Assembly (NCBI GenBank): GCA_964616145.1
Contig: CAZTRD010000002.1
Coordinates: 4,553 to 68,552 of the forward strand
Source of the DNA: an uncultured Candidatus Saccharibacteria bacterium
Lineage (GTDB): Bacteria; Patescibacteriota; Minisyncoccia; Minisyncoccales; PEYH01
Length of the DNA: 64,000 nucleotides
Direction: 5' to 3'
Part shown: positions 24,311-47,839 of the stretch, in pieces
How the letters are laid out: each line of letters opens with the position of its first letter
How positions within the stretch are numbered: the first letter of the stretch is position 1
Notes under the pieces: model-generated
Database searches by the model: none
What the model was told of the DNA's origin: nothing
What the model saw: only the letters and a program-made list of their open reading frames with translations
Translations under genes and position numbers: made by a program

Positions 24311-24313
24311 TCT

Positions 24314-28615: not shown

Positions 28616-28773
28616 ATATCTATAATTTTATATCCTTTCGGCATCCATTAAATGCCTTTTTGGGTACAAATAAAGCATCAATCCTCAAATATTTCTAATT
28701 TTGGCTTCTTTTTCATATGGGCACTTTGACACGGAGAGTCCTAATTCATCGCGGAATGGAGTGTTATTTAGCA

Positions 28774-29328: not shown

Positions 29329-29376
29329 GCTATTAATATTAATTGTTATGATAATATAGTTTTTCTTATATCCTTT

Positions 29377-29628
29377 TTATTTGCGCAAGGTAATGGTAAT
29401 TCCGATAATTTGGAAAATGAAACCCATAATAAACAAACCAAAACCAAAAATGCCCAATAGTCTATCCTTCTTGTGTTTTTTTTGCGTGTATTTTCCATCC
29501 TTATCCATGCTTAAAATAAGATCATTTTCAACATTTCTAGTTATTTTTAAATACGGGAATAACATTATTAAGGAAGCTAAAGTATTTATGCAAAGACCAA
29601 TTACTGTTAAAAGTTGTGATGCATTCAT
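29377..29628 (-). CDS. small two-TM membrane protein (start MNASQLL)
   Basis: ATGA-type overlap with the upstream gene; hydrophobic. Confidence 0.3.
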   Translation of the reverse strand: MNASQLLTVIGLCINTLASLIMLFPYLKITRNVENDLILSMDKDGKYTQKKHKKDRLLGIFGFGLFIMGFIFQIIGITITLRK

Positions 29629-29888
29629 AAGGTTAAAATTATTTGTATAACCAAAACTACAAGCGTGATAATTGTTAAACCAACAATCCCCCAAGTCAGT
29701 CGAATCATTTTTTGGGTTTGTTTTGACGATTGCTCATTAAATATCTGCATTGTTTCTTGTAATCCCTTTAGCGCACGCCTGGTCAACTCGTCGGAAGCAA
29801 GTGGAACAACGCGAAAATCATATTCGTTTATCCAAAGTTTTAGTTGTTCGTTCGTAGCGTCTTCTAATTTTGGAGAAAAATTACTCAT
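29625..29888 (-). CDS. small tail-anchored membrane protein
   Basis: Soluble N-terminus and a C-terminal TM helix; 87 aa. Confidence 0.3.
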   Translation of the reverse strand: MSNFSPKLEDATNEQLKLWINEYDFRVVPLASDELTRRALKGLQETMQIFNEQSSKQTQKMIRLTWGIVGLTIITLVVLVIQIILTL

Positions 29889-29896
29889 AATTTTAT

Positions 29897-32800: not shown

Positions 32801-33193
32801 TGCCTCGCCTTCTTGCCATTGCCACAACTGCCACTCGCGGAGATTAGTGAAAATAATATTTTCAAGTGACTCCTTATATTTTAAAAATTGCTCTTGGAAT
32901 TTTTCTGCGTTGAGATTTTCCTGTGAAGTTTTTACTTCAATCCAGCCAATAAGATCGTTGCCATTGCGGATAGTAATATCGGGAAATCCGACCTTGTGTT
33001 CGTATTGAGTTGATGTTTCCTCTGGTGTGGCCTGCGGAGTACGTAATTTCAGCGTGCCACTTTTCGCATACTCCTCAAAGAAAGCGCATAAGAGCGGGTA
33101 ATACGACCGCTCCGTAGCCGTATCTTTTATCTTCGCAATTTTCTGTTTTAGTAGCTCAACTGTTATGTTCATAAACTTTTTATGAAATGACAT
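29897..33193 (-). CDS. large N6-adenine DNA methyltransferase (type IIG / PglX-like architecture)
   Basis: IIGNPPYSNFG (NPPY motif IV) and FLMSAI-type AdoMet region; 1098 aa. Confidence 0.65.
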   Translation of the reverse strand: MSFHKKFMNITVELLKQKIAKIKDTATERSYYPLLCAFFEEYAKSGTLKLRTPQATPEETSTQYEHKVGFPDITIRNGNDLIGWIEVKTSQENLNAEKFQEQFLKYKESLENIIFTNLREWQLWQWQEGEAKKMAETLFDLTAIDSAPSEEFERFLIKFFEGHAYQTRTPKQLALALAKKTRLLSQQVEEALGKSEADSDLRKLKETFERTLIQDTSEHQFANMVAETMAYSLFLAALEHSRRDGAELTLTNAIDYLPTNVPILADLYSLIKKVSSTIPTIYEATRLLVDQLNASEINRIHQKLVEHKPGEDPVIQFYEPFLKEYDPKEREARGVYYTPKPVVDYIVKSVDWLLRNRFKKIKGLADESVHLLDPATGTGTFLMSAIQEIYANIKKENSSLGEEMVKREFNRVVLSHILKRFYGFELLIAPYAIAHLKLTLEVERLGFDFANTKNDNDKDNDRFKVYLANTLDDPNAEAVQGRATSDFGAIAFPSIPQESKDARKVKKNAPILAIIGNPPYSNFGRMNRGEWILNLLKDYKKDLKEKKINLDDDFIKFIRFAQWKLSETGQGIFAMITSNTFIDGMTHRQMRCSLMDTFDEIYIYNLHGNSRKGETAPNGGKDENVFDIQQGVSINIFVKRPEKQNETIVKYCDLWGLREDKFATLLDENFEETKWQVLSPKQPNWFFVARDTGVEQEYNQFLGVSDIFPIKNSGIETQKDNVAIQFSNEKLETIVKDIINLSDETFKQKYQISDSRDWKFNLAREDVKTHQKAITKIQYRPFDYRYTLFTGKSKGFIAYPRAEIMEQMLKENLSLLTCRQLAIDGFHHIYISKNISERCLVSIKTKEVGYVFPLYLYLDKGESLFVGAVGNIPAVRQANIDLLVARKIAEKIGRVYYPVAECQTKDGDTRLAPEEIFYYAYAIFHSPTYRLRYAEQLKIDFPRLPLTGDKKLFVQLVALGKELANLHLLGENPFDKSKTIFDKQEKWDIKIGGEKPTDLPDWQVTDVRYNEKDKRVYVNKEQYFEGVEKEVWEFMIGSYQVCEKWLKDRKKAERALSTDDLKNYIKIIVALRETIRIMGEIDKVISSGTIPTLFGGKK

Positions 33194-36100: not shown

Positions 36101-36302
36101 TCGTTTTTCCTAAACCAACTTCGTCAGCGAGAATCGCGCCCCTTGAGAGAGGACTCTTAAACGCAAAAATTGCCGCATCAACTTGGTGTGGGTTCAAATC
36201 AATATTTGCCGAACGAATGGAATTATTCAGTTTCTCTGGATCGGAAACCGGTCTCTTTTCTGTCAGTTTATGTGCAAGATATGTTCGCAAAAAATCAGAC
36301 AT
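33180..36302 (-). CDS. SNF2-family helicase
   Basis: LADEVGLGKT, VIDEAHRMRN and QRIGRCHRYGQ motifs; 1040 aa; its 3' end overlaps the methyltransferase start by 14 nt. Confidence 0.75.
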   Translation of the reverse strand: MSDFLRTYLAHKLTEKRPVSDPEKLNNSIRSANIDLNPHQVDAAIFAFKSPLSRGAILADEVGLGKTIEAGLIIDQLYTEGRQNILILVPASLRTQWQDELLNRFSLPSEIIDGSILKKKQKERMTENPLKEGGIFIASHNFAYRYDYICANIVWDLVVIDEAHRMRNVWRKTNKTAKKIREVIKNRPKVLLTATPLQNNLMELYGLTSFLDENYLGTEFSFKTLFANPVKKRGEIDRLKQLRERLMGTINPTTGAISGGILTRTLRKQVAGLVVFTNRYSITEDFAPNEDEIELYDAVGNYLRRPFLASTRATQRNMMELVYRKILASSSFAIAGTLYNVAHFLAKRLQIEFAVSVDEVNRVVDNLRSEFAVRSGKEHQKIVFPKYEKITPEAEQEVLSGLDDVEANLEKLAEENQDADDLGEDELLSDETKKFEEREIDHKFTKEEVLQEFKDVLSYHHLANTIDKNQKSQALVRVLDKVFKYADKKQWPQKAVIFTESRRTQDHLEKLLGGVGHDLILFNGSNASNHAQEIFAEWQKEFPKEAERGTKGINLRKALIWKFKDIKKGILITTEAGAEGLNLQFANIVINYDLPWNPQRIEQRIGRCHRYGQKLDVLVINFLNKKNYADQRVYELLSEKIKLFGNLFDFSDKMLGTEQLTDDGYEVREIALGGLGAGLDFERKILDIYRHCRTEQEIEHGFQQLQLELSDIIKEKIEDAQRKVIQHFDEEVRLKLRIRQKELTDSLDRFDAQLKKYLTVSFGDDIHPISGNVFDYNGTTYFLGRLADKDKEKGYKPAHIKEPFIKERLEADRKIKSLLRQVSLRHDSSKEHRPFDDLIGKECQLVVELLKCERKTINNTKEEFEKIILTGFVNQGAKWEQIPASRLERLFDLDVVSEDKNESRLRDELEDASSTQLKSAQEDVNSENEKYIFEEMDRLDQFVEESLLRFRQEMDKREKEIRELQKTMRASRTLGAHERDQIQADIDKKQKELFKAQKRYIQAQQEQFVDKDKKVADLRNKLQMSFSHERIASVKFNVIS

Positions 36303-36307
36303 AGCTT

Positions 36308-36490
36308 TTATTTCATCCTTAGCATATTTAAAATATCTTCTTTTTTATATCGCCTATCCCTACGACTGCCAAAACGAATAGCCTTTAATATACCTTTGTT
36401 GTCCCAGTTACGAAGAGTATTTGGGTGGACGTTCAAAAGTTCAGAGGCTTGCTTCATTGTTAGAATTTCTGGTAATTTGTCTTTATCCAT
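36308..36490 (-). CDS. excisionase/MerR-family HTH DNA-binding protein
   Basis: LTMKQASELLNVHPNTLRNWDNKGILKAIR is a typical HTH_17 pattern. Confidence 0.5.
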   Translation of the reverse strand: MDKDKLPEILTMKQASELLNVHPNTLRNWDNKGILKAIRFGSRRDRRYKKEDILNMLRMK

Positions 36491-36564
36491 AACTCAGAAT
36501 ATAATTGAAATATGACTTACCATTAGTTTACAATTATAAAAAGCAAAAGTAAAGCAAAAAAATT

Positions 36565-37341
36565 ATGAATAATAATTGGTATTTAAAAATCCTAGATCAG
36601 TATCATGAAGAGCGGCATACTGCTGCGTTCTATAAAACGCAAGCTTTTCGCAAATTATGGAATGCTACTCAAGGGCTTATTGCAAAAGAAACATTTCAGG
36701 AAAAAATTAAAGGTTTGCGCGTTAAACATAAAATTCCGGAGAATGGATTCTTTGTTTCCGACAAAGTACGTACTCATCCCCCCAAAGAATGGGTTTTATA
36801 CGAAAGCAACTTTTCTAAAAGACTCTATTCTATGATGACGATACAGAAAGATATAGAAAAAATATGTCCCGATGGTTTTCCAAAAAAAGATTTTGTGTCT
36901 ATATTCGAAGACTATTTGTTTTATAATCATTTATTTCTGTCGCCAGAACCAAATTCTCATAACCTAATTTATATAACTGATTTAAAGACGAAATCTGATT
37001 CACTCGGTCATAGACTTAATAATAACGACGTAACCACCTATCCTGTAGCTATTTTGATAAGTCCGTACGCTGGAGAAAGAGATATCCTAGACTTTATTAA
37101 AAGATTATATAAGATTGAGATTAAGCCAATTCAAGAAAAATACAAAAAATCAGATAGTTTAATCGGTAAATCAAGAAAGCGTAATAAAACTAAAAGGATA
37201 AGAAATCAATTTATTTATGAAAATAGACGCCTTCCTTATAAAACAATATCTGCCTTGGTGGGTAAAAAATTTCCCGAACATGATGTAGACGAAGGATCAG
37301 TTGGTAAAATTATTTCGCTAGAAACAAAAAGGCGAAAATAA
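36565..37341 (+). CDS. hypothetical protein
   Basis: ORF only; a basic C-terminus. A hairpin with T tract at about 37391-37415 follows. Confidence 0.3.
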   Translation: MNNNWYLKILDQYHEERHTAAFYKTQAFRKLWNATQGLIAKETFQEKIKGLRVKHKIPENGFFVSDKVRTHPPKEWVLYESNFSKRLYSMMTIQKDIEKICPDGFPKKDFVSIFEDYLFYNHLFLSPEPNSHNLIYITDLKTKSDSLGHRLNNNDVTTYPVAILISPYAGERDILDFIKRLYKIEIKPIQEKYKKSDSLIGKSRKRNKTKRIRNQFIYENRRLPYKTISALVGKKFPEHDVDEGSVGKIISLETKRRK

Positions 37342-37434
37342 GTGTAGTACAGAAAATTCTTACACAAAGAATAATTAATTTTATAAGCTGGCATAATAAG
37401 CCAGTTTTTTATTAATTAAGACATTTATAAAACT

Positions 37435-38709
37435 ATGGAAAAACTTCAATGGCATAACGAAAAAAGAAAAGTTAATAGCCTTAAATATTATGGCAAAAAT
37501 CCTCGCATCATGCCGGATAAAAACATGAAAGATCTAACGAATAGTTTGCAGAAGATGGGCCTGGCGGAAATACCAGCAATTGATATTGACGGGACCATAG
37601 TTGCTGGAAACCAAAGAGTCAAAGCTCTTCAGGTTCTTGGTCGTGGTCAAGAAGAAATCGATGTAAGAATCCCTAATAGAAAACTTACAAAAACAGAATT
37701 TAAGTTCTACCTGCTCGCCAGTAATCGTATAAGTGGCCTCTGGGATTTTGATGCCTTAAAGACTAACTTTAATATTGAAACTCTCCTGGCAACCAGTTTC
37801 GACACAGAAGACCTTAGTAGAATATTTGATGATAATCTCGAAATAGAAGACGACCATTTTGATGAAAATACCGAGCTAAAAAAGATTAAGAAAACAGATA
37901 TTAAGCCCGGGGATTGTTTTGCTCTTGGTCGCCATCGCTTACTTTGCTCCAATGCCCTTGACCCTGCCACTGCTAAAACACTCATGGCTGGAGTCCAGGC
38001 AGATATGATTAATGATGATTTGCCTTACAATATCGGGCTTTCGTACGACAAGGGTGTTGGAAATAAGGGTCGCTATGGCGGAACAACAAATGACAATAAA
38101 AGCGATGAGGAATATAGGGCTTTTGTAAGGACGATCATGCAAAACGCTCTTTCAGTGGCAAAGACGGATGCGCATATATTTTTCTGGTGCGATGAAAGAT
38201 ACGTGTGGCTGTTTCAAGAGCTATATAAAGAATTCGGGCTTGATTCAAAACGCCTTTGCATCTGGATTAAAGATAATGCTTCCCCTACTCCGCAGATTGC
38301 TTTTAATAAGGTGACTGAGTTTTGCGTTTACGGAACCAGGGGCAGGCCATTCTTATCGGATAAAGTAAACAATCTGAATGAATTGTTAAACAAAGAGATA
38401 ACCAGTGGCAATAGATTGTCAGATGATATTTTGGATTTATTGAATATATGGCTAGTAAAAAGATTACCTGGTAATGAATATCAACACCCGACGCAGAAAA
38501 ATCCTCAGGTTCACGAAAAAGCTTTGCGACGCTGCACCCGTCCAGGCGATGCAGTTCTCGATTTAACCTGCGGATCTGGCAGTATTTTATCAGCTTGCCA
38601 TCAGCTTAAACGCAGAGCCTATGTTTGTGATTGCGAACCGATCTTCTGCCAGCTTACTATTAATCGTTTTAAACAAATCTCACATGACGAAATCAAGAAA
38701 CTTAATTAA
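37435..38709 (+). CDS. ParB-like nuclease domain fused to an N4/N6 DNA methyltransferase
   Basis: N-terminal ParB/Srx-like region (EIPAIDIDGTIVAGNQRVKAL), D-L-P-Y motif IV and C-terminal LDLTCGSGS motif I. Confidence 0.6.
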   Translation: MEKLQWHNEKRKVNSLKYYGKNPRIMPDKNMKDLTNSLQKMGLAEIPAIDIDGTIVAGNQRVKALQVLGRGQEEIDVRIPNRKLTKTEFKFYLLASNRISGLWDFDALKTNFNIETLLATSFDTEDLSRIFDDNLEIEDDHFDENTELKKIKKTDIKPGDCFALGRHRLLCSNALDPATAKTLMAGVQADMINDDLPYNIGLSYDKGVGNKGRYGGTTNDNKSDEEYRAFVRTIMQNALSVAKTDAHIFFWCDERYVWLFQELYKEFGLDSKRLCIWIKDNASPTPQIAFNKVTEFCVYGTRGRPFLSDKVNNLNELLNKEITSGNRLSDDILDLLNIWLVKRLPGNEYQHPTQKNPQVHEKALRRCTRPGDAVLDLTCGSGSILSACHQLKRRAYVCDCEPIFCQLTINRFKQISHDEIKKLN

Positions 38710-39454
38710 ATATGGAACAATCTTTAAGCTAGGCAACCATTACTTAGCATATGGCGATAGTCGCGATAAAGAATTGGTAGCACGGCTTGTTGGTCAATTT
38801 AAAGTCAAGGCTGTCATTTGTGATGTTCCATTTGGTATTGCCGTGGTTGAATCAAAAGAGAAATTTCAGCCACTTTCTAAAAACAAACCTATCATTAATG
38901 ACCATTTCCAGAGCGATGCAGAGTATCAGAAATTTACTCAGGATTGGATCGAAGGGATCAAGCCCCACCTTGCTAGAAAAAATGTTTTCTACATCTTCAA
39001 TTGCGATAAAATGATTTTTGCTCTGCGCCAAGGAATGATTCAGGCAGGATTAAAATTTGGACAACTTTTGATATGGGTTAAAACGCATGCTGTTTTAGCT
39101 CGCATGGACTATGCCCCGCAGCATGAGCTTATTGCTTATGGCTGGTATGGTACCCACGAATTTCTCAAATCAAAAGACAAAAGTATTATTGTGTATCCAA
39201 AACCCAATAAAAGTCCTAACCACCCTACCACAAAACCTATTGGCCTTATTCGCAGACTCATTCTAAACAGCACCTGGATCGGAGACGTGGTATTTGACGG
39301 GTTCCTAGGATCAGGCACTTGTTTATTGGCTTGCGAGCAAACCAAACGCATATGTTTTGGAGTGGAAATTGATCTAGAATATGTTGAAACGTCGATTCGA
39401 CAGTTCGAGGTATCAACAAACATTAAAGCAAAAATAATACATGAAAAAAGATAA
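38684..39454 (+). CDS. N4/N6 DNA methyltransferase; start probably at MTKSRN
   Basis: ICDVPFG motif IV and FDGFLGSGT motif I (beta-class order). Confidence 0.55.
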   Translation: MTKSRNLIKYGTIFKLGNHYLAYGDSRDKELVARLVGQFKVKAVICDVPFGIAVVESKEKFQPLSKNKPIINDHFQSDAEYQKFTQDWIEGIKPHLARKNVFYIFNCDKMIFALRQGMIQAGLKFGQLLIWVKTHAVLARMDYAPQHELIAYGWYGTHEFLKSKDKSIIVYPKPNKSPNHPTTKPIGLIRRLILNSTWIGDVVFDGFLGSGTCLLACEQTKRICFGVEIDLEYVETSIRQFEVSTNIKAKIIHEKR

Positions 39455-39845
39455 AACAAAAAACTTATTAATTGAACAGCTTAAAAAGACTCCCGTCGCA
39501 CAAATTGCCTGTGAAAAAGTTCAGGTTGCGAGAGCATCATTCTATCGCTGGAAAATTGAAGATAAGGAATTCGCAAAAGCAGTTGAGGAGGCATTACTTG
39601 AAGGAGAAACTTTTATTACAGAGATGAGCGAGTCACAACTAATTTCTATGATTCGAAATGGTAATTTTCAGGCAGTTCAGATGTGGTTGCGTCATCATAA
39701 TCCTAAATATGGTCAGAAGATAGAGATTTCGGGAAATATAAATCAACCACAAGAGGAATTAAATCCCGAGCAAGAGGCAGTGGTCCGGGAAGCCCTACGT
39801 CTTGCATCATTACTCCCCGAACAAAAATCAGAAGAAAACAATTAA
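39441..39845 (+). CDS. terminase small subunit-like HTH protein
   Basis: Small helical protein directly upstream of terminase large subunit; ASFYRW-type HTH. Confidence 0.4.
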   Translation: MKKDKTKNLLIEQLKKTPVAQIACEKVQVARASFYRWKIEDKEFAKAVEEALLEGETFITEMSESQLISMIRNGNFQAVQMWLRHHNPKYGQKIEISGNINQPQEELNPEQEAVVREALRLASLLPEQKSEENN

Positions 39846-39863
39846 TTAAATTTAAATAAAAAT

Positions 39864-41345
39864 ATGACAGAAATAGACTATCAACAACTTCTCAAAAAGT
39901 ACAATTGTAATCACCTATCTTTAGATTTGGTGGAACGAATGATAAAAGATCGCAAAATCCGTACTGCAATCTGCAAACAAAGTTTCTTTATATTTTTTCA
40001 TTTTTACTTTGCCCATTACGTGAAATATATGACAGCCTCATTTCAGCGCGAAATATTTCATCTCGTAGAGCAGGAAAAAGACAAAAATCTTTTTGTGATC
40101 GCTTTCAGAAATTCAGGGAAATCAACGATTCTTACAACCGCCTATCCTATCTGGGCAATTATTGGTAACCAACAGAAAAAATTCGTATTGATACTTTGCC
40201 AGACAAGAAGTCAAGCAAAACAACACATGATGAATTTAAAACGAGAACTTGAAGGGAATCAACTTCTCAAAGATGACCTTGGGCCCTTCAAGGAAGAAAG
40301 CGATGAATGGGGTTCAACCTCTCTCGTTTTTGCTAGATTAAATGTGCGCATTACCGCAGCCTCAACCGAACAAAGCATCAGAGGATTGAGACATGACCAG
40401 TATCGTCCAGATCTTATTATCGGAGATGATGTTGAAGATCTCAATTCGACCAGAACAATGGAAAGCAGACAGAAAACCTATCAATGGCTCACTGGTGAGG
40501 TGATCCCAGCCGGAGACAAGAGTACTAGGCTTATTATTGTTGGTAATCTTTTACACGAAGATTCGCTCCTTATGCATCTAAAACATGACATAGAAGAAGA
40601 ACGAATTAACGGTTTGTTCAAAGAATATCCACTGTTTGATAAACAAGGAATAATTGCATGGCCGGGAAAATATGCTACCGAGAAAGATATTGAAAATGAA
40701 AAGAAAAAATCCGGGGACGAAATTGCCTGGCAGAGAGAGTATCTTCTCCGCATAGTTTCTGACGCCGGAAGAGTCGTTCATCCCGAATGGATCCATTATT
40801 ACGATTACGATAAAGATCTTCCAAACGACGAACATTTTATTCAAACTTACGTTGGCGTTGATTTAGCGATATCCGAGAAGGATAGCGCACATCGTACAGC
40901 TATTGTTGCAATGAAGATTTATCGACGAGAGGATAGGGACTACGCATATGTCATGCCCTTCCCCTTTAACGATACTATAGGGTTTCCAGAACAAGTAAAT
41001 CAAATAAAGCTACTAGTGTCAGATACTAAGAAATATCGTTATCCGAGAATCTTTGTTGAAAAAGTTGCATATCAAGCATCTATTATCCAGCAGTGTCAAA
41101 ATTTAGGTATTGTGATAGAGGGAGTTCCTCCGCATGGAGATAAACGTGAGAGGCTTGCGCTTACTACCGCAGCGATAAAAGAAGGGCTTATTCTATTTCC
41201 AAACAAAGGAGCAGAGGAACTTATCGCTCAGCTTACTGGATTTGGTACAGAAAAGTATAACGATTTGGCAGATGCATTCTCGTTGGTTGCAAATCAATTT
41301 ATAGCCTATTCTAATCAATCTGGACCAATGCTTACAATTTTTTGA
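39864..41345 (+). CDS. phage terminase large subunit
   Basis: Walker A FRNSGKST, Walker B LIIGDDVED, C-terminal RNaseH-like nuclease (VGVDLAIS). Confidence 0.7.
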   Translation: MTEIDYQQLLKKYNCNHLSLDLVERMIKDRKIRTAICKQSFFIFFHFYFAHYVKYMTASFQREIFHLVEQEKDKNLFVIAFRNSGKSTILTTAYPIWAIIGNQQKKFVLILCQTRSQAKQHMMNLKRELEGNQLLKDDLGPFKEESDEWGSTSLVFARLNVRITAASTEQSIRGLRHDQYRPDLIIGDDVEDLNSTRTMESRQKTYQWLTGEVIPAGDKSTRLIIVGNLLHEDSLLMHLKHDIEEERINGLFKEYPLFDKQGIIAWPGKYATEKDIENEKKKSGDEIAWQREYLLRIVSDAGRVVHPEWIHYYDYDKDLPNDEHFIQTYVGVDLAISEKDSAHRTAIVAMKIYRREDRDYAYVMPFPFNDTIGFPEQVNQIKLLVSDTKKYRYPRIFVEKVAYQASIIQQCQNLGIVIEGVPPHGDKRERLALTTAAIKEGLILFPNKGAEELIAQLTGFGTEKYNDLADAFSLVANQFIAYSNQSGPMLTIF

Positions 41346-41424
41346 AATTAGATCAAAAAATTTATTAAACAAGCGGCAAAAATAATCAAGAATTTACTAA
41401 CTGTAACGGTCTGGACTTACTCGC

Positions 41425-42780
41425 ATGGTTGCGTCATCCTTGCCTTGTATGAATACACCAACCATAGGGCTACCAGGGGCTATAGCCCAAACACATATCC
41501 AAGCCCCAGAAAAGGTAAAATATGTGCTTTATGCTCGTAAATCGACCGAATCTGACGAAAAACAAGCCCTTTCCGTGGACTCACAGATAAAAGAAATGCT
41601 TCAAATAGCAGAAAGAGAGGGTTTAGAAATCGTTGATATCCGCCGAGAATCCCATTCAGCCAAAGATTCCGGCCAAAGACCTGTGTTCAACGAGATGATA
41701 AAAGATATCCGAAGTAGTAGATATACCGGGATTTTAACTTGGGCACCGGATCGACTTTCCAGGAACGCCGGCGACCTAGGGGTGTTGGTCGACCTTATGG
41801 ATCAAAAATTATTGGTAGAAGTAAGAACATTCGGCCAAAGATTTACAAATTCGCCAAGCGAAAAATTCTTGCTCATGATTCTCGGAGCCCAAGGCAAACT
41901 GGAAAACGACCAAAAAAGCGTGAATGTAAAACGAGGATTAAGAATGAGAGTAGAAATGGGTCTTTGGCCTAGCACTGCCCCAACGGGCTATCTTAATGAA
42001 AAACGTATAGATAGAAAAGGCTATGTGATGACTGATCCAGAAAGATCCTCTGTTATCAAGCAAATGTTTGAAAAAGTTGCGTACGAAAAATGGAGCGGTA
42101 GAAAAATATATCATTGGTTAAAATTTGACCTAAATTTCAGGACTAAAAGTAATCATCACCTATCGTTGAGTAACGTTTATCTCATTCTTCAAAATCATTT
42201 CTACTATGGCATATTTGAATTTCCCAGAAAAAGTGGCAATTGGTATACTGGAAAACATCAACCAATCATTAATCAAGCTTTATTCGATGGAGCTCAAGAA
42301 CAATTAAAAAGAGACATTCTTAAGCACGAAAGCAAAGAATTTGCCTTCACCAAGTTGATGAAATGTGGATTGTGCGGTTCCGGAATTACCGCTGATGAAA
42401 AATTCAAGAATCTAGTTGATGGATCAACAAGACGGCATGTTTATTATGGGTGTACCAAAAGCAAGGATAAGAATTGCAAGTGCGGTTATATCAGCGAGGA
42501 AAGTCTAATTGAACAACTTGTTAAGATTATAGATGATATCAGTTTAGATGAATTGGGTATAAAAAAGACATTGGAAGAAGATATCAAGAAATATTATAAA
42601 TTCAAACAAATTGTATTGGGATTAACTGATAAAGACGATTTAGCAGTTAAAGAAATAGATATCAAGAATTACGTAAAATATATCCTAAAAGAAGGTAGAA
42701 TCTTTGAAAAGCGAGATATTCTTGATAATCTTAAGAGTCGGTTGGTATTAAAAGAAAAGCAAATTTATCTGGAAAAATAG
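41425..42780 (+). CDS. large serine recombinase/integrase
   Basis: YARKSTESDEKQALSVDSQ catalytic-Ser resolvase N-domain, a recombinase domain and a C-terminal zinc ribbon (CGLCGS...YYGCTKSKDKNC). Confidence 0.75.
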   Translation: MVASSLPCMNTPTIGLPGAIAQTHIQAPEKVKYVLYARKSTESDEKQALSVDSQIKEMLQIAEREGLEIVDIRRESHSAKDSGQRPVFNEMIKDIRSSRYTGILTWAPDRLSRNAGDLGVLVDLMDQKLLVEVRTFGQRFTNSPSEKFLLMILGAQGKLENDQKSVNVKRGLRMRVEMGLWPSTAPTGYLNEKRIDRKGYVMTDPERSSVIKQMFEKVAYEKWSGRKIYHWLKFDLNFRTKSNHHLSLSNVYLILQNHFYYGIFEFPRKSGNWYTGKHQPIINQALFDGAQEQLKRDILKHESKEFAFTKLMKCGLCGSGITADEKFKNLVDGSTRRHVYYGCTKSKDKNCKCGYISEESLIEQLVKIIDDISLDELGIKKTLEEDIKKYYKFKQIVLGLTDKDDLAVKEIDIKNYVKYILKEGRIFEKRDILDNLKSRLVLKEKQIYLEK

Positions 42781-42997
42781 GTAGGGATTAGATATAATAG
42801 TAGTATTAACAATCTATGTTGCCTAAACCTCGTAAGAGGCATGGCACAAAAACCGATCAAGGCATTAAGCTCGTCGTCAGAGCGCCTTGATCGGTCATAG
42901 CTCGAAAGGGTTATGGGTGGTCGTAAGACCATCGCTGGCGGCGAGCTTTATGTTATGCCACCGAAAAAAGTCATATAAATTTAATTAATAAAAACAT

Positions 42998-43312
42998 ATG
43001 GGAATTTGGAAAACCTTAAACACAAATACAAAAGAATTAGCTAATGGATTGGATAAAAAAACTAAAGGGCCTAAGGACATAAAAGAAACAAAGTGTACAT
43101 GTAGCGCTTGCGGAAATATTTGGTATTATGGCAAACAAGAAGCTTGGGAGCAGAAATCCAATGTCATGAGCAATGCTGGAAAATCAATGATGTGCTGCAG
43201 TGGCTGTCTACCAGCACTTTTAATCTCTCGCAAAAAAACTATGGATCTTGATAAATGCTCTAAGTGTGGATCAAGGGCGGTTAAAAAAGAGGAAATAATA
43301 CATCATGTTTAA
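42998..43312 (+). CDS. small zinc-ribbon protein
   Basis: CTCSACGN...CSKCGS. Confidence 0.3.
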   Translation: MGIWKTLNTNTKELANGLDKKTKGPKDIKETKCTCSACGNIWYYGKQEAWEQKSNVMSNAGKSMMCCSGCLPALLISRKKTMDLDKCSKCGSRAVKKEEIIHHV

Positions 43313-43523
43313 TATAATCATTTTCGCAATAAAGATTTATCAGAAATTAATTTCTCCAATATTGAAACGTATGGGAGTAAGATGTCGTTTTTATCCAACT
43401 TGTTCCCAATACTCGATAATGGCTATCAAAAAATACGGCCTACTAGTTGGTACGCGAAAAACATATTTCAGATTAAAAAAATGCAGACCAGATAATCTTG
43501 ATAGTTGCATAGATTTTCCATAA
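43305..43523 (+). CDS. yidD: membrane protein insertion efficiency factor YidD
   Basis: CRFYPTCSQYSIMAIKKYG matches the YidD signature. Confidence 0.7.
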   Translation: MFNIIIFAIKIYQKLISPILKRMGVRCRFYPTCSQYSIMAIKKYGLLVGTRKTYFRLKKCRPDNLDSCIDFP

Positions 43524-43538
43524 ATAATAAAAAATTAA

Positions 43539-44615
43539 ATGGCTATAATCATCTCAAAAAACGGTAAAAATGCTAAGAAGATTGATAAATCAGCTTTCGA
43601 AAAAGAGGATTATCTACAGAGATATATTCAAAACAACCCCGAAAGCATACCTCTTTACGACATTAAAGAAGATATTCATCTTTTAATTTTAGCGAGAGAA
43701 TTCTCTACAGATAGCGGTCCGATTGACGCATTGGGAGTGGATAAGGATGGTGAAATTTATCTCGTAGAAACCAAGCTTTACAAAAATCCCGATAAAAGAT
43801 TAGTGGTTGCCCAAGTTTTGGACTATGGTGCTTTTCTCTGGCACTCTTATAATAATTTTGACGAATTAGCTAGGATTTTAGATGAAAAAGTGAATAAAAA
43901 ATTTGGCATAGGTCTCAACCAAAAACTTAAAGATTTCTTTAAAATTGATGATGAGGAAATTTTGATTCTAATCGAAAGCTTTAAAAAGAATCTCAATGAA
44001 GGAAATTTTAAATTCGTCGTACTAATGGATAAATTACATAATCAGCTAAAAGATCTGATTATTTTTATCAATGAAAACAGCCGATTCGATATTTTCGCGG
44101 TAGAAATGGAATATTATAAATATGATGATTATGAAATAATGATTCCTAAATTATTCGGGGCAGAGGTTAAAAAAGACATTGGAGTTTCATCATCCAGCGC
44201 CAGAAGAAAATGGGAAGAAAAGAGTTTTTTTGAAGATGTCGTGGCAAATCTAAGCGAAGAGGAAATCGATGCGGTAAAAAAACTATATGAATTTTCTAAA
44301 AATAATGCAGAGCATATAAGTTGGGGGACGGGAGTTGCTCGTGCGTCTTTCAGTGTAAAATTTTCAAGGATTAGCGAAACAAAATCTCTTTATACGGTTA
44401 AGAGTGATGGCAAATTAAGCCTCAACTTTGGATGGCTTAATGCTAATGATATAGTTATTAGATACAGAGACAATTTTAAAAACATACTAGAAAAAGAAAA
44501 ATTATTCTCTATCCCGAAAAATTATAAAACTCTTTCTCCTGGATATAAAATAGATGTTTGGTATAAAAAAACTGATGAGTTTATTAAAGCGATAGAAGGT
44601 TTAATAGAAAAATAA
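43539..44615 (+). CDS. hypothetical protein with a PD-(D/E)xK-like core (DALGVDKDGEIYLVETK)
   Basis: Motif only. Confidence 0.35.
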   Translation: MAIIISKNGKNAKKIDKSAFEKEDYLQRYIQNNPESIPLYDIKEDIHLLILAREFSTDSGPIDALGVDKDGEIYLVETKLYKNPDKRLVVAQVLDYGAFLWHSYNNFDELARILDEKVNKKFGIGLNQKLKDFFKIDDEEILILIESFKKNLNEGNFKFVVLMDKLHNQLKDLIIFINENSRFDIFAVEMEYYKYDDYEIMIPKLFGAEVKKDIGVSSSSARRKWEEKSFFEDVVANLSEEEIDAVKKLYEFSKNNAEHISWGTGVARASFSVKFSRISETKSLYTVKSDGKLSLNFGWLNANDIVIRYRDNFKNILEKEKLFSIPKNYKTLSPGYKIDVWYKKTDEFIKAIEGLIEK

Positions 44616-44947
44616 TTCGGGCGTGTAAGAACATCTAATAGTGAACGCTTTTTTAGTTTAATCTACACCATAAATTAAACTATCGAATTTGAGCATTCTC
44701 TACCACTGAAAAACTTATTATAAAACTAAAACCGGCTGGAGTGCAGCACTTGTTATATTGCGCTACTTAACGCAGCACAGCACAACAGAACGCATCGCAA
44801 TTCCAACCGGCAATTTTATTTTACCAACTCAATAACACTTGTCAAGATTCCAACTCTTCATCTTGATATTTTCATGTCTAAGGATGACAGTGTAATTTAT
44901 CTTCTGGCAAGCAAAACTACCCCTCCCGGTCGCCAGAACGATGCTCA

Positions 44948-45118
44948 ACGATGCTGTGTGCCCCGGTCTAGAATTTACACCTATCAAGTCATAGAGGGTC
45001 TTCAAGTTATAATTTCATTCAAGATTTGACCCGTCTCGGTCGGAGCATATATTTCAATTCTAGCACAAAATGAGACAAATGAGACACAGGAAAGGGATAT
45101 ATTGGGGTGTCTCATTTT
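44948..45118 (+). repeat. about 171-nt repeat element, copy 2, directly abutting high-GC island B
   Basis: See 20109-20281. Confidence 0.8.
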
Positions 45119-45126
45119 AAGACAAA

Positions 45127-45160
45127 GCCCCTAGCCTCGGTTTACACCTTAGCTAGGGGC
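45127..45160 (-). terminator. GC-clamp hairpin GCCCCTAGC...GCTAGGGGC, 30 nt after the stop of the 607-aa gene
   Basis: 9-bp stem; a weak T-rich tail on the minus strand. Confidence 0.45.
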
Positions 45161-45189
45161 GGGATCTCTGATCAAGTGGAAATAGCGAC

Positions 45190-47013
45190 TCATCCTTGCG
45201 CACGCTCGAGGTTCGCGTTGACGGTTTTGTACAACTCCGCCAACTCCGGAGACAACGGATCGGGAGCGAACTCCGCAACCACTGCAAGTGCTTGAGCGAG
45301 GCCTTCTTCACCCTGTCCGTTGAAGGCGGTTTGATACGCCTTCGTGAGACGAGCAAGAGGCTCTTCCAGAAGTGCAACCAAGGCTTCTGCATCTTGGCAG
45401 AGTTCCTGGTTAAGCTCTAGCTTGCCGTCTTGGATGTAGAGAATGCCCGCTCCCATGAAGCACGTTGCGATGGTCTTGGCTTCGTTGTAGTAGGGCCTGA
45501 ACGTTGAGTTGGCAGCCATGTTCTTGGCGAATCTTCGTAGAATCTCGCCAATTAGGTAAGCTACCATCTCTGGCCCAAGCTGGCCTTCGAAGCTCGCTTT
45601 GATACCCAGCATAGCCTTCAAGCCCAAGATCGTCGCCTTGGTCTCCTCGAAGCTCGGCTTGTGAGCTCCAAAGGCTGGTTTGATCTTGGCGTTGATGAGC
45701 CATGGGTGTCCAAGCTCGTGAGCGATGACAGCGATGAGATGGGCAAGCAGACTGAAGTGCTTCTCAAGCCACTGTAGAGTCTTCTGCCCGAAGCACGTTC
45801 GAATCAGGTGCTCGAACTGTGCTTGACGAATCTTCATCGTGAGCACGTCGAGGATAGCCTTCATCCCCTGCTCTTGGACCTCCGATCTGTTCGGAACCGA
45901 TTGCCCCGCAAGTCGGAAATCCACCGTCCCACCAGCCATGAGGATGAACGCGTCAGCGTCGATCCCCTCGAGCTTCTTGACGTATTCACTGTCGCCGGCT
46001 TCTGCCCCGAACGGTGCGATCGCCCTACGCAAAGCAGTGATAAGACGAGCAAGTTCCGTAGAACGATAGAGCACGCGGAACTCCGGAGCGACGGTGGTTG
46101 GATGTTGATACCCATCCTCCATCATGTGAACCGGCATCACTCTCTGGTTTGGACCGATCTTCAACCAGGCCCAGTCGACATCCGCCCAGACCTCCTCAGT
46201 GTCTGAAAGATTGGATTCAACGATAGCGTCCTTGAGAGCTCGGAAGTAGTTCCGATATGCTCTCGCCACAGATACTTGTTCGAGGGGAAGCCCGGTGTCT
46301 CCCATAGCGTCACGAAGGGATCGAATCAGGACTTCAAGAATTCCTGTGATCTCTCCGATCTCCTCGGGAAATGCGATCACGAATGGGACTTCGCATAGTT
46401 GAGCAACGACGTCCCTGGAAAGCTTGCCCTCGAAGAACCCACCTTCGGACCTGACCAGCACACTGTAGTGATTTGGACAGGCCTGGCTCACGACTTCCTT
46501 GAGTCCAGGATCTTCCCTCAACCCGAGCTGATACGGCACGACGACCTTCGCTCGCCACGCGAAGAATAGCCGATCGAATGCAGCGGCAAGCGGTAGCATG
46601 CCTCTCAGCAGAATCCCCTCGAGAATCGAGAGGCCGTCTGAACGATCAGCTAAGGCAAGCATCATCGTATCTTGAGCTCGAACAACTGGCCAGACAACGA
46701 GCTCGAAGAACTGTTGAAGCTTGACTGGATCGTCTTGAGGAAGCTCACCGAGAGTAGCAGTCCTCTGCGCTGCGTACTGCACCGCAAGATCGAGGGGTAT
46801 TGCCAACCCGATTTCCTCAAGCAATCCGTAGATGTGGGCGCGCGAATCGGGACGTGTCATCACGAAACGCTCGCTTGCCTCCAAAGCTTGCTTGAGATCC
46901 CCTTCGAAATCGCGATTCCCGGTAGAGATTGATACGCCACCTGAACGTCCTGGGTGTAAATCTGCCAAAAAGGCAGCCCATTCTTGACTCCGTCTTGATC
47001 GTGGGATCATCAA
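45190..47013 (-). CDS. high-GC 607-aa gluzincin-type zinc metallopeptidase-like protein (HELGH...E), possibly M3/M32-like
   Basis: IAHELGHPW HExxH with a Glu 24-25 residues downstream; GGAAGGAG SD 5 nt before the ATG; GC-rich codon usage. The internal antisense ORFs are artefacts. Confidence 0.5.
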   Translation of the reverse strand: MMIPRSRRSQEWAAFLADLHPGRSGGVSISTGNRDFEGDLKQALEASERFVMTRPDSRAHIYGLLEEIGLAIPLDLAVQYAAQRTATLGELPQDDPVKLQQFFELVVWPVVRAQDTMMLALADRSDGLSILEGILLRGMLPLAAAFDRLFFAWRAKVVVPYQLGLREDPGLKEVVSQACPNHYSVLVRSEGGFFEGKLSRDVVAQLCEVPFVIAFPEEIGEITGILEVLIRSLRDAMGDTGLPLEQVSVARAYRNYFRALKDAIVESNLSDTEEVWADVDWAWLKIGPNQRVMPVHMMEDGYQHPTTVAPEFRVLYRSTELARLITALRRAIAPFGAEAGDSEYVKKLEGIDADAFILMAGGTVDFRLAGQSVPNRSEVQEQGMKAILDVLTMKIRQAQFEHLIRTCFGQKTLQWLEKHFSLLAHLIAVIAHELGHPWLINAKIKPAFGAHKPSFEETKATILGLKAMLGIKASFEGQLGPEMVAYLIGEILRRFAKNMAANSTFRPYYNEAKTIATCFMGAGILYIQDGKLELNQELCQDAEALVALLEEPLARLTKAYQTAFNGQGEEGLAQALAVVAEFAPDPLSPELAELYKTVNANLERAQG

Positions 47014-47209
47014 TACTCCTTCCCTTCTTCATTTTCCACTTGTATCAGATTGACAAGGTGCGCTATCACCCCCTCCTTTAGAAGGTGATTGTTTTGTGAT
47101 TTTAGAATAATCTCTAGAAATAGTCAACGAAGGTTTTTAAATGCTTAGGATTATAAAAAAACTGTTATTTACAAGCATTTTTATTAATTAATAAAAAAAA
47201 TAAATTAAG

Positions 47210-47725
47210 CTACCAATACCAAGGTGGAAGTTTTAACTTTAAAGATTTAATATTCCTTTCTAATAAAATATTACGTGCGACTTCTTCTATTTTTATGTCT
47301 CCCCTATCTAATTTAGTATGACAATTTGGGCACAACTTAATGATATTCATAAAACAATTTGGCCCCCCTTTTTCTTTTGGAATAAAATGAGCTTCTTCTA
47401 GATATGTTTCTTCGCCGCAAATTTCACAAAGTTTTAATTCTGATAATTTTTTATTATTTGCTTTCAATAAATTTTCGCTATCCTTTTTCTTCAGTCCAAG
47501 TATTCCAATCCATCCTTGTCGACTACCAAAACCACTTAAGGTTGGCCTTCTGATCATCCATCTATCAGCCATTTTTTTCAAGCCCCAGTTTTTATCGTGA
47601 TAAAATTCTTGCCAATCTTGTTCCAAAGTATGGCCAAGTCTTTTTTCTACATCAAGCATCTTAGATGTTTTAGTTCCTTTTGGTTGAGGTAAAAATTTGT
47701 GGTTTTTTGGACTTCTAATAGTCAT
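47210..47725 (-). CDS. HNH endonuclease
   Basis: CEICGEE...EAHFIPKEKGG...CPNCH HNH motif. Confidence 0.6.
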   Translation of the reverse strand: MTIRSPKNHKFLPQPKGTKTSKMLDVEKRLGHTLEQDWQEFYHDKNWGLKKMADRWMIRRPTLSGFGSRQGWIGILGLKKKDSENLLKANNKKLSELKLCEICGEETYLEEAHFIPKEKGGPNCFMNIIKLCPNCHTKLDRGDIKIEEVARNILLERNIKSLKLKLPPWYW

Positions 47726-47768
47726 AATTTGATTCCTCTCGGACTTTCTCGATACTACAACCTGATTG

Positions 47769-47839
47769 CTGCGGGGCTAGGATTCGGACCTAGATTAATT
47801 GGTTCAGAGCCAATCGTGCTACCATTACACTACCCCGCA
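47769..47839 (-). tRNA. tRNA-Gln (anticodon CUG)
   Basis: Hand fold: U1-A72 acceptor TGCGGGG/CCCCGCA, T-arm CTAGG-TCCGAAT-CCTAG, anticodon stem ATTGG/CCAAT with loop CTCTGAA. Confidence 0.7.

What the first reader, a model, noticed from the sequence alone, without database searches (positions are those of the whole stretch)
44948..47060. Island B: high-GC 607-aa HExxH...E (gluzincin, M3/M32-like) protein inserted between repeat copy 2 and an HNH endonuclease/tRNA-Gln
A single self-contained gene (SD GGAAGGAG, GC-clamp terminator) with a composition totally unlike its neighbours.

Upstream on the minus strand lie an AT-rich HNH endonuclease gene (47210-47725) and tRNA-Gln (47769-47839). Downstream the gene abuts the 170-nt repeat hairpin. 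The tRNA-HNH-cargo-repeat order suggests a tRNA-linked mobile insertion, and the HNH protein could be a homing or mobilising nuclease.
Basis: partly seen in the sequence, partly recalled or inferred. Interest (0 to 1): 0.6.

Follow-up and report, generated by a model that had tools for sequence, protein, structure and literature searches.

The report
Foreign peptidase gene in tRNA-Gln island
A single, intact gene for a zinc peptidase-like enzyme (DPP III fold, distant relative of Campylobacter CiaB) with 55% GC sits as horizontally acquired cargo in a 33-kb variable island next to tRNA-Gln in a 35%-GC Paceibacterota (CPR) genome. This is an ordinary kind of event, though the gene family is unusually rare, diverse and compositionally foreign wherever it occurs.

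Summary
ORF 45190-47010 (minus strand, 606 aa) has 55% GC (GC3 0.61) against about 35% (GC3 0.32) for the other ORFs, with GC steps at about 45128 and 47085. It is not a misassembly: three other assemblies match the window at 100% across the junctions.

The protein is not M3/M32-like. It belongs to Pfam DUF7897 and is distantly related to CiaB. Its AlphaFold model (pLDDT 90.7) matches only dipeptidyl-peptidase III (M49) structures. HELGH and EETKAT align with the two M49 zinc motifs.

Sibling genomes show that window 14379-47734 is a hypervariable island directly 3' of tRNA-Gln. One sibling has 0.5 kb there, and others carry different cargo. None has the peptidase, so "tRNA-linked insertion" holds at island scale. 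There is no tRNA-fragment repeat.

The HNH gene is not tied to the peptidase. It sits by tRNA-Gln in another genome with different cargo, and none of 17 homologous loci has an HNH.

The family is rare (183 clusters in 1.84 billion proteins) and lacks conserved neighbours. It is GC-richer than its contig in 17 of 18 loci. Two sibling genomes carry 47%-identical versions at the same site.

Verdict: horizontally acquired accessory peptidase; a new member of known kinds; moderate interest.

The parts
45190..47010 (-). CDS of a 606-aa DUF7897/CiaB-superfamily protein with a DPP III (M49)-like fold. Zinc site: HELGH (aa 432-436) and EETKAT (aa 456-461).
   Evidence: ORF. Pfam PF25448 at 53.6 bits against a cut-off of 27. 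183 homologous clusters, nearly all with HExxH at the same place. AF2 pLDDT 90.7. Foldseek top 15 hits are all DPP III. Motif alignment to 5zum and 6eom.
47016..47023 (-). Shine-Dalgarno GGAAGGAG, 5 nt before the ATG at 47010. It lies inside the GC-rich block.
   Evidence: Read from the sequence.
47099..47127 (-). Promoter-like site TTGACT-17-TAAAAT in an AT-rich (about 19% GC) spacer, roughly 90 nt upstream of the ATG. It lies outside the GC-rich block.
   Evidence: Consensus scan, 10 of 12 matches. This is a pattern match only.
45128..45159 (-). GC-clamp hairpin (CCCCTAGC, 16-nt loop, GCTAGGGG) followed on the minus strand by CTTTGTCTT. It is the likely intrinsic terminator carried in with the gene and marks the low-coordinate end of the GC-rich block.
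   Evidence: Sequence; GC profile.
44953..45125 (.). Copy 2 of a roughly 170-nt element (copy 1 at 20115-20285). It ends in the hairpin AAAATGAGACAC...GTGTCTCATTTT. The same element occurs in the tRNA-Gln islands of sibling genomes.
   Evidence: No Rfam match. Folding is not better than shuffles.
47210..47725 (-). 171-aa HNH endonuclease gene, AT-rich. It is a separate, independently spread module at the tRNA-Gln flank.
   Evidence: Pfam HNH. The same gene in L025 is 89.5% identical in amino acids and 92.6% in nucleotides, against 75-80% nucleotide identity for prfB, ftsE and ftsX. Absent from L021, L022, L024 and L026.
47768..47839 (-). tRNA-Gln(CTG). Its 3' end faces the island.
   Evidence: ARAGORN and Rfam. 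Conserved in all sibling loci.
14379..47734 (.). A 33.4-kb hypervariable island between tRNA-Gln and the conserved PsbP-like / 141-aa / TSP3 / YchF block. It holds a Type ISP R-M enzyme, an SNF2 helicase, two methylases, small and large terminase subunits, a large serine recombinase with a LOOT RNA, YidD, a PDC-S11-like nuclease, the peptidase and the HNH.
   Evidence: blastn against siblings: L022 is collinear with window 50309->47735 and then jumps to 14378->9775. Gene content.

Best explanation
The 45.13-47.09 kb block is a single, intact, horizontally acquired gene. It arrived with its own ribosome-binding site and terminator and is read from an AT-rich, host-type promoter.

It encodes a soluble zinc metallopeptidase-like enzyme of the DUF7897/CiaB superfamily. 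The enzyme has the two-lobed DPP III (M49) architecture. By alignment, H432, H436 and E457 bind the metal and E433 acts as the general base.

The gene is one module of a 33-kb mosaic island that fills a recombination hot spot immediately 3' of tRNA-Gln in a Paceibacterota genome. Close relatives have the same core genes on both sides but carry nothing, or entirely different cargo, at this site.

Shown here: the composition, the intactness of the gene, the fold, the motif homology, the absence from siblings, and the independence from the HNH gene.

Inferred, not shown:
- The donor genome was about 55% GC and the transfer was recent, because all three codon positions agree with about 51-60% GC.
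- The gene entered by recombination between shared flanks (tRNA-Gln/HNH on one side, the 170-nt element on the other) after DNA uptake.
- The enzyme trims oligopeptides in the cytoplasm, as DPP III does.
For: Composition:
- GC 0.549 against 0.352, z 3.3.
- GC1, GC2 and GC3 imply a home genome of 60, 51 and 55% GC, using regressions recalled from Lawrence & Ochman 1997.

Not a chimera:
- Three independent contigs are 100% identical across the junctions.

Protein identity:
- Pfam DUF7897 above threshold.
- phmmer finds 183 clusters, and bona fide CiaB proteins are among the distant hits.
- Invariant residues include H296, E299, Y302, G370, Q371, P374, H432, E433, H436, E456, E457, K459 and A460.
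- The AF2 model has pLDDT 90.7 and pTM 0.91.
- The Foldseek top 15 hits are all DPP III at probability 1.0; the best is 6eom at E 2.6e-11.
- A profile search of PDB sequences hits only two DPP III chains. HELGH aligns to HELMH/HEISH and EETKAT to EEAKAD/EECKAD.

Island:
- L022 (FtsX 92% identical) has about 0.5 kb where the window has 33.4 kb.
- L021 and L024 have 3.3 kb of other genes there. L025 and L026 carry yet other cargo.

Family mobility:
- No neighbour is conserved across 17 loci. Neighbours are assorted housekeeping genes.
- The gene is GC-richer than the other ORFs of its contig in 17 of 18 loci.
- L015 and L016 share 92-94% nucleotide identity in their flanks, but their peptidases at the same site are only 47% identical. 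Homology resumes within about 10 nt of the stop codon.
- HGT and genomic islands are documented as common in Patescibacteria (PMC12455944).
Against: - No donor is known. The nearest relative is only 41-42% identical (P0003/L029), and it too is a GC-rich outlier in an AT-rich contig.
- The island shows no integrase-type att duplication and no tRNA fragment repeat. The entry mechanism is therefore inferred, not shown.
- Peptidase activity is untested. Pfam Peptidase_M49 itself does not match.
- The second motif ends in T rather than E or D.
- The same fold is also used by non-peptidase Fe/pterin enzymes (PolE, E about 1e-5).
- Functional context is ambiguous. In this window the gene lies in a defence/mobile island. 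In L003 and L016 it lies next to M42 and M20 peptidases.
Confidence: 0.78

Rival explanations
1. The GC-richness is a maintained property of a hyper-diverse gene pool, not a by-product of a one-off transfer. CiaB-like peptidases would be conflict or interaction genes, for example effectors of the episymbiotic lifestyle. They would be swapped again and again between AT-rich CPR genomes from a GC-rich reservoir (host organisms, or GC-rich CPR), or kept GC-rich by GC-biased gene conversion at a recombination hot spot.
For: - GC is higher than the other ORFs of the contig in 17 of 18 loci, by more than 10 points in 8.
- The whole clade around the window protein (L001, L003, L006, L013, L029) sits in 30-38% GC hosts and is still elevated.
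- L015 and L016 are siblings with 47%-identical alleles, both 55-56% GC, and each is the other's nearest relative in the library.
- In the ten clusters looked up, each 90%-identity cluster has 1-2 members among 15 billion proteins.
- CiaB is a secreted invasion-associated protein in Campylobacter (PMC11633169).
Against: - Regression to the mean may explain the sign bias. Most sampled hosts are very AT-rich, so any incoming gene looks GC-rich. In hosts of 41-59% GC the difference is small and takes either sign (L009, L010, L019, L020).
- There is no signal peptide and no secretion-system neighbour.
- No hits in phage or plasmid collections.
- No GC-rich non-CPR donor was found.
Confidence: 0.15
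2. The HNH endonuclease is a homing or mobilising nuclease that carried the peptidase gene to the tRNA-Gln site.
For: - The HNH lies between the tRNA and the cargo.
- The HNH gene is itself unusually similar between two genomes, at 92.6% nucleotide identity against 75-80% for the core genes. That is consistent with a selfish, recently spread gene.
Against: - L025 has tRNA-Gln and the HNH followed by a different gene. Homology with the window ends at 47178, 32 nt past the HNH stop.
- None of the 16 homologous loci tested has an HNH homologue near the peptidase. The short contig L029, fetched later, has no HNH-sized gene.
- The HNH is AT-rich and the cargo GC-rich, so their histories differ.
Confidence: 0.04
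3. The GC-rich block is an assembly chimera or contaminating DNA from a GC-richer organism stitched into a CPR contig.
For: - The GC jump of about 20 points is abrupt.
- The genome is a metagenome-assembled genome.
Against: - Three further contigs from other assemblies or runs are 100% identical across both junctions.
- The GC steps coincide with the RBS and the terminator of one intact gene.
- The same pattern occurs in at least 8 unrelated contigs for homologues.
Confidence: 0.02
4. The region is a GC-rich structured non-coding RNA rather than a protein gene, as is usual for GC-rich patches in AT-rich genomes. Alternatively, the protein is a non-peptidase metalloenzyme of the DPP III-like fold, such as the Fe/pterin-dependent PolE.
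For: - Mean folding z-score is -1.6 on the sense strand, with some windows near -2.8.
- PolE structures are the second group of fold hits, at E about 1e-5.
Against: - The 1.8-kb ORF is conserved as protein at 25-42% identity in 183 clusters, with invariant catalytic motifs and a confident fold.
- No Rfam hit lies within the gene.
- The antisense strand and a control gene give z of -1.2 and -0.6, so the signal is weak.
- The HExxH and EExKA motifs align to the zinc ligands of DPP III.
Confidence: 0.05

Closest known systems
Dipeptidyl-peptidase III, MEROPS family M49 (closest solved structure: Caldithrix abyssi DPP III, PDB 6eom; also 5zum, 5na8, 3fvy)
   Same: - Two-lobed fold: Foldseek probability 1.0, E 2.6e-11, TM 0.52/0.60.
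- The motifs are collinear. HELGH aligns with the first zinc motif; it is the pentapeptide HExxH variant seen in 6eom (HEISH) and 5zum (HELMH). EETKAT aligns with EE(A/C)KAD.
- An upstream ...PN... strand motif also aligns.
- Similar size, 524-720 aa.
   Different: - Sequence identity is only 12-15%.
- Pfam Peptidase_M49 does not match.
- The last residue of motif 2 is T, not E or D.
- Activity is untested.
CiaB (Campylobacter invasion antigen B; NCBIfam NF033805) and Pfam DUF7897 (PF25448)
   Same: - Same Pfam family, above threshold.
- Genuine CiaB proteins are retrieved by phmmer from the window protein. They have the same length (about 600 aa) and HExxH at the same position.
   Different: - The CiaB equivalog score is 46.9 bits against a cut-off of 250, so this is not an orthologue.
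- The host is a CPR bacterium without flagellar export.
- CiaB's own biochemical role is still described as unclear (PMC11633169).
tRNA-adjacent genomic islands and horizontally transferred genes in Patescibacteria (PMC12455944)
   Same: - A variable, mosaic island at the 3' end of a tRNA gene, absent from siblings.
- It carries R-M systems, prophage remnants and individually transferred genes.
   Different: - No tyrosine integrase and no tRNA-derived direct repeat.
- The only recombinase is a large serine recombinase 5 kb away.
- The cargo is GC-richer than the host, the reverse of the usual AT-rich islands.
   Same: An HExxH motif plus a downstream Glu ligand in a protein of about 600 aa that is mostly helical.
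   Different: - No Pfam or NCBIfam match to M3 or M32.
- No M3 or M32 structure is among the 21 Foldseek hits with E <= 1e-3.

Membership tests
Pfam DUF7897 (PF25448) / CiaB superfamily | Score above the Pfam gathering threshold | tested here: met
   53.6 bits against 27, E 1.7e-14. Only profile positions 188-286 of 595 align.
Pfam DUF7897 (PF25448) / CiaB superfamily | Full-length homology with family members, including bona fide CiaB | tested here: met
   phmmer finds 183 clusters of 550-650 aa. P0136, P0137, P0142, P0143 and P0145 score 582-786 bits on the CiaB model and are hit by the window protein at E 2.5e-7 to 3e-6.
CiaB (NCBIfam NF033805 equivalog) | Score of at least 250 bits on the equivalog model | tested here: not met
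   46.9 bits. A distant paralogue or homologue, not CiaB.
MEROPS M49 (DPP III) | DPP III two-lobe fold | tested here: met
MEROPS M49 (DPP III) | First zinc motif: HExxGH, or the HExxH variant | tested here: met
   HELGH (432-436) aligns to HELMH of 5zum and HEISH of 6eom. Invariant in 16 homologues.
MEROPS M49 (DPP III) | Second zinc motif EExR(K)AE(D) | tested here: inconclusive
   EETKAT aligns to EEAKAD and EECKAD. E, E, K and A are conserved; the final acidic residue is T.
MEROPS M49 (DPP III) | Match to the Pfam Peptidase_M49 profile | tested here: not met
   No Pfam hit other than DUF7897 at E <= 0.01.
MEROPS M49 (DPP III) | Zinc-dependent release of N-terminal dipeptides | not testable with these tools
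   Needs an enzyme assay.
M3/M32 gluzincins | Profile or fold match to Peptidase_M3 or Peptidase_M32 | tested here: not met
   No hit in Pfam or NCBIfam, and none among the significant Foldseek hits.
tRNA-linked genomic island | Directly flanks the 3' end of a tRNA gene and is absent from close relatives | tested here: met
   Homology with L022, L021 and L024 stops at window 47735-47767, next to the tRNA-Gln 3' end at 47768, and resumes at 14378.
tRNA-linked genomic island | Direct repeat of the tRNA 3' end at the far boundary (att duplication) | tested here: not met
   The best other match to the tRNA is 15 nt with one mismatch at 19026-19040, E 0.76. Near 45.1 kb there are only 8-nt chance matches at E 47.
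tRNA-linked genomic island | Integrase or recombinase at the island end | tested here: inconclusive
   A large serine recombinase lies at 41425-42780 inside the island, with terminase genes and a LOOT RNA. It belongs to an inner 24.8-kb module, is not at the tRNA end, and there is no tyrosine integrase.
Homing-HNH-mobilised cassette | HNH gene co-occurs with the cargo in other genomes | tested here: not met
   None of the 16 homologous loci tested has an HNH near the gene, and L029, fetched later, has no HNH-sized gene. L025 has the HNH without the peptidase.

The most novel reading that the evidence does not exclude
CiaB-like, DPP III-fold peptidases form a hyper-diverse, persistently GC-rich pool of single-gene cassettes. 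AT-rich CPR bacteria would exchange them repeatedly at hot spots, often beside tRNA genes, and whole alleles would be replaced between sibling genomes (L015 against L016). This would point to a conflict or host-interaction role, such as a symbiosis effector analogous to CiaB. It would also require an unrecognised reservoir, or a mechanism such as GC-biased gene conversion or a GC-rich partner organism, that keeps the genes compositionally foreign.
Probability: 0.15. Interest if true: 0.6.

Novelty: new member of a known kind. Interest (0 to 1): 0.35.

Why it matters
The result gives a structural and mechanistic reading for a domain of unknown function. DUF7897 becomes a DPP III/M49-like zinc site, and by homology this extends to Campylobacter CiaB, whose biochemical role is still called unclear.

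It also documents, at base-pair resolution, a tRNA-Gln recombination hot spot in Paceibacterota. Its content ranges from 0.5 to 33 kb between near relatives.

The family-wide pattern is a small but concrete puzzle about how streamlined, AT-rich CPR genomes acquire and turn over genes. The family is rare, every variant is nearly unique, it is almost always GC-richer than its host, and it can be replaced wholesale between sibling genomes. If it reflects more than sampling bias, it could point to an interaction factor of the episymbiotic lifestyle.

Tried and rejected
- **M3/M32 assignment:** no profile or fold support.
- **tRNA-Gln fragment repeat as att site:** none found beyond chance.
- **HNH as mobiliser of the cargo:** rejected.
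- **Conserved operon partners:** all-against-all clustering of neighbours in 17 loci found none. tblastx between loci found similarity only within the gene itself, except for the L015/L016 pair.
- **Phage or plasmid carriage:** no relatives in IMG/VR, INPHARED or PLSDB. No PHROG or PADLOC hit for the peptidase.
- **The 170-nt repeat as a known or structured RNA:** no Rfam hit even at E <= 5. Folding is no better than shuffles. Four copies give no compensatory support.
- **Structured-RNA reading of the GC-rich block:** z-scores are weak.
- **Assembly chimera:** rejected by three independent identical contigs.
- **Second homologue search with the alignment:** unproductive because of the word index, with only 2 hits.
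- **Literature:** no paper mentions DUF7897, and none found links CiaB to a peptidase fold.
Full report
**1. The observation**

The window is AT-rich, 30-40% GC in nearly every kilobase. Two adjacent kilobases stand out: 45-47 kb at 53-55% GC. One ORF fills them, 45190..47013 on the minus strand.

The probable start is the ATG at 47010. It is preceded by GGAAGGAG five nucleotides upstream, and the 606-aa product is identical to database protein P0001.

The gene has GC 0.549 (GC1 0.64, GC2 0.41, GC3 0.61). Its neighbours (HNH, FtsX, FtsE, PrfB, the NucS-like gene) have GC 0.32-0.38 and GC3 0.24-0.35. Against the 55 other ORFs of at least 100 aa in the window, it lies 3.3-3.4 sd above the mean.

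A fine profile puts the GC steps at about 45128 and about 47085. The foreign block therefore comprises the CDS, its RBS and a GC-clamp hairpin (45128-45159). The promoter-like TTGACT-17-TAAAAT at 47127-47099 lies in 19%-GC DNA outside the block.

**2. Not an artefact**

Contigs from three other assemblies are 100% identical to the window. These are ENA ERZ27248920 and ERZ27248937 and Logan SRR8437217, matching over 5231, 3667 and 2140 nt. One of them spans FtsE-FtsX-tRNA-HNH-peptidase-repeat and runs into the next gene.

**3. What the protein is**

- Pfam gives a single hit, DUF7897 (53.6 bits against a cut-off of 27). NCBIfam gives a sub-threshold hit to invasion protein CiaB (46.9 against 250).
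- An exhaustive phmmer search of 1.84 billion representatives finds only 183 clusters (105 at E <= 1e-10). Nearly all are 550-650 aa with HExxH at the same relative position.
- Five distant hits are bona fide CiaB by the NCBIfam cut-off. The window protein is therefore a remote member of the CiaB superfamily, not CiaB itself.
- In an alignment of 16 homologues the invariant residues include H296, E299 and Y302 (PVHMMEDGY); G370, Q371 and P374 (AGQSVPN); H432, E433 and H436 (HELGH); and E456, E457, K459 and A460 (EETKAT).
- AlphaFold2 on that alignment gives a confident model, pLDDT 90.7 and pTM 0.91.
- Foldseek against the PDB returns DPP III (MEROPS M49) for all of the top 15 hits at probability 1.0. 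The best is Caldithrix abyssi DPP III, 6eom, at E 2.6e-11. Next come Fe/pterin-dependent PolE enzymes at about 1e-5, and nothing else is significant.
- A profile search of PDB sequences independently hits only two DPP III chains. It aligns HELGH with HELMH/HEISH, EETKAT with EEAKAD/EECKAD, and the upstream ...PN... segment with the corresponding DPP III strand.

This is an M49-like fold and zinc site in a family that Pfam still lists as a DUF. From my own knowledge of DPP III, the second Glu of the EExxAE motif is the third zinc ligand, and the Glu of HExxH is the catalytic base. By alignment these are E457 and E433. No signal peptide or membrane segment is visible in the sequence.

**4. The locus in relatives**

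I searched with FtsX to find sibling genomes and fetched their contigs. L021, L022 and L024 are Candidatus Paceibacterota with FtsX 92% identical. They are collinear with the window from 64 kb down to 47735-47767, the 3' end of tRNA-Gln. Collinearity resumes at window 14378 (PsbP-like, 141-aa, TSP3, YchF, PriA).

Content of the same slot in each genome:

| Genome | Content between tRNA-Gln and the conserved block |
|---|---|
| Window | 33.4 kb |
| L022 | about 0.5 kb |
| L021, L024 | 3.3 kb: a 447-aa protein and an acyltransferase |
| L025 (FtsX 77%) | the HNH gene, then an AAA_15/DUF2813 ATPase |
| L026 (FtsX 64%) | LexA-methylase, DUF3800 and DUF2130 genes |

None of these has the peptidase. 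The window's island also carries:
- a Type ISP restriction enzyme, an SNF2 helicase and two methylases;
- small and large terminase subunits;
- a large serine recombinase with an adjacent LOOT RNA;
- YidD and a PDC-S11-like nuclease.

The peptidase is thus one module in a mosaic hot spot at tRNA-Gln. "tRNA-linked insertion" is right at that scale. However, there is no tRNA-derived direct repeat and no integrase at the tRNA end.

**5. The HNH gene**

In L025 the HNH gene occupies the same position beside tRNA-Gln. Homology with the window ends at 47178, 32 nt after the HNH stop, and different cargo follows.

No HNH lies near the peptidase homologue in the 17 other loci. Searches tested 16 of them directly, and the 3.6-kb contig L029, fetched afterwards, holds no HNH-sized gene. 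The HNH is AT-rich. It is therefore not a mobiliser of this cargo.

It does look independently mobile. It is 92.6% identical in nucleotides between the window and L025, while prfB, ftsE and ftsX next to it are 75-80% identical. It is absent from L021, L022, L024 and L026.

**6. The 170-nt repeat**

The element recurs in the tRNA-Gln islands of L021 and L024, between the cargo and the first core gene, and in L026. It has no Rfam match, folds no better than shuffled sequence, and shows no compensatory changes.

It ends in a hairpin plus a U-run that would terminate minus-strand transcripts.

The two window copies bracket the 24.8-kb inner module that contains the terminases and the serine recombinase. 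The GC-rich block begins within 3-10 nt of the end of copy 2.

I infer, but have not shown, that shared sequences such as tRNA-Gln/HNH and this element provide the homology for cassette exchange by recombination.

**7. The family elsewhere**

Scans of GTDB genomes and JGI metagenomes gave 16 further loci, and two more came from exact look-ups. All eight genome-scan loci are CPR-type MAGs. Six are named Patescibacteria-group lineages (Patescibacteria group, Saccharibacteria, Kaiserbacteria), and two are labelled only "bacterium".

- No neighbour is conserved. Flanks are assorted housekeeping genes. An M42 aminopeptidase sits next to the gene in L003, and an M20 peptidase sits upstream in L016.
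- A tRNA gene lies within 350 bp in 5 of 17 loci. By my rough estimate this is only modestly more than expected, p about 0.02 with a 10% background.
- The gene is GC-richer than the other ORFs of its contig in 17 of 18 loci, and by more than 10 points in 8: the window, L001, L006, L013, L015, L016, L029 and nearly L008.
- In the window, L015, L016 and L029, all three codon positions are self-consistent with a home genome of about 55% GC. This suggests transfers too recent for amelioration (the regressions are recalled from Lawrence & Ochman 1997).
- L015 and L016 are sibling genomes, with flanks 92-94% identical in nucleotides and 88-98% in amino acids. Their peptidases at the same site are only 47% identical, both at 55-56% GC. 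DNA homology resumes within about 10 nt of the stop codon. Each is the other's nearest relative in the whole library.
- In the ten clusters looked up, each 90%-identity cluster has one or two members among 15 billion proteins.
- No relatives occur in phage or plasmid collections.

**8. Interpretation**

The best-supported reading is an accessory zinc peptidase gene of the DUF7897/CiaB superfamily with an M49 fold. It was recently acquired by horizontal transfer and lodged in a tRNA-Gln recombination hot spot (confidence about 0.78).

Much of the family-wide GC excess can be explained as follows. A frequently transferred gene is being sampled mainly in very AT-rich recipients, where any incoming gene looks GC-rich. 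In hosts of 41-59% GC the difference is small and takes either sign. Horizontal transfer and genomic islands are already documented as common in Patescibacteria (PMC12455944).

Some facts are not fully explained:
- no donor has been sampled;
- the whole clade around the window protein is elevated in AT-rich hosts;
- an allele has been replaced wholesale between siblings.

These leave room, about 0.15, for a maintained GC-rich and hyper-diverse cassette pool with a conflict or interaction role.

Function beyond "DPP III-like metallopeptidase" is inferred. Cytoplasmic trimming of oligopeptides is the default reading, and it is weakly supported by the M42 and M20 neighbours in two loci. In the window the gene sits among defence and mobile genes, but it has no PADLOC hit.

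**9. Verdict**

- Novelty: a new member of known kinds, namely genomic-island cargo and a DUF7897 family member.
- One useful by-product is that DUF7897, and therefore CiaB, carries a DPP III-like fold and zinc site.
- Interest: 0.35.

Noticed in passing
window 42820-42933 (+), next to 41425-42780 (+): A LOOT RNA (Rfam RF03000, 93.8 bits against a gathering score of 46.4) lies 40 nt downstream of a large serine recombinase gene. That gene follows the small and large terminase subunit genes (39441-41345). The arrangement looks like a prophage or satellite remnant inside the island.
   Followed up: partly
window 20115-20285 and 44953-45125; L021 13616-13734; L024 4790-4908; L026 15715-15846: A roughly 170-nt conserved element ending in an AAAATGAGACAC...GTGTCTCATTTT hairpin recurs at cargo/core junctions of the tRNA-Gln island in several Paceibacterota genomes. 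The two window copies bracket a 24.8-kb module containing the recombinase and terminases. There is no Rfam hit and no covariation. It may be a shared terminator or a recombination substrate.
   Followed up: partly
window 47210-47725 (-) and L025 3653-4168: The HNH gene is 92.6% identical in nucleotides between two genomes whose adjacent prfB, ftsE and ftsX are only 75-80% identical. It is absent from closer siblings. This is the signature of a recently spread selfish (homing-type) gene at the tRNA-Gln flank.
   Followed up: partly
L015 4566-6308 and L016 5959-7701: Two sibling genomes (flanks 92-94% identical in nucleotides) carry 47%-identical, 55-56%-GC versions of the peptidase at the same site. 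Homology resumes within about 10 nt of the stop codon. L016 also has tRNA-His, an M20 peptidase and HisRS inserted upstream.
   Followed up: partly
window 7001-7700, 51450-52500, 53850-54350, 59050-59500, 60850-61350: Further small GC-rich patches (48-56% GC) occur in the AT-rich genome. Some have short ORFs (179, 100, 117 and 107 aa) with no Pfam match, and there is no significant Rfam match. Several fall in gaps of homology with sibling L021.
   Followed up: partly
window 51395-51484, 52137-52226, 52649-52738: There are three copies of a 90-nt direct repeat that starts TGAGCGGGTTAGTGGATGACATTAGAACC. They lie in a roughly 3-kb segment (51388-54416) between tRNA-Thr and tRNA-Gly, where sibling L021 has only about 0.4 kb. 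The segment also holds a Fic-domain gene, and a NYN-domain gene lies just outside it at 50632-51294.
   Followed up: no
window 43539-44615 (+): A 358-aa protein with a weak NucS-like nuclease signature matches the PADLOC candidate defence family PDC-S11 (E 1.7e-17). It converges on the peptidase gene across repeat copy 2.
   Followed up: no
L003 4649-5614 (-): An M42 glutamyl aminopeptidase gene lies divergently next to the L003 peptidase homologue. At 49% GC (GC3 0.51) in a 36%-GC contig, it too is a GC-rich outlier.
   Followed up: no
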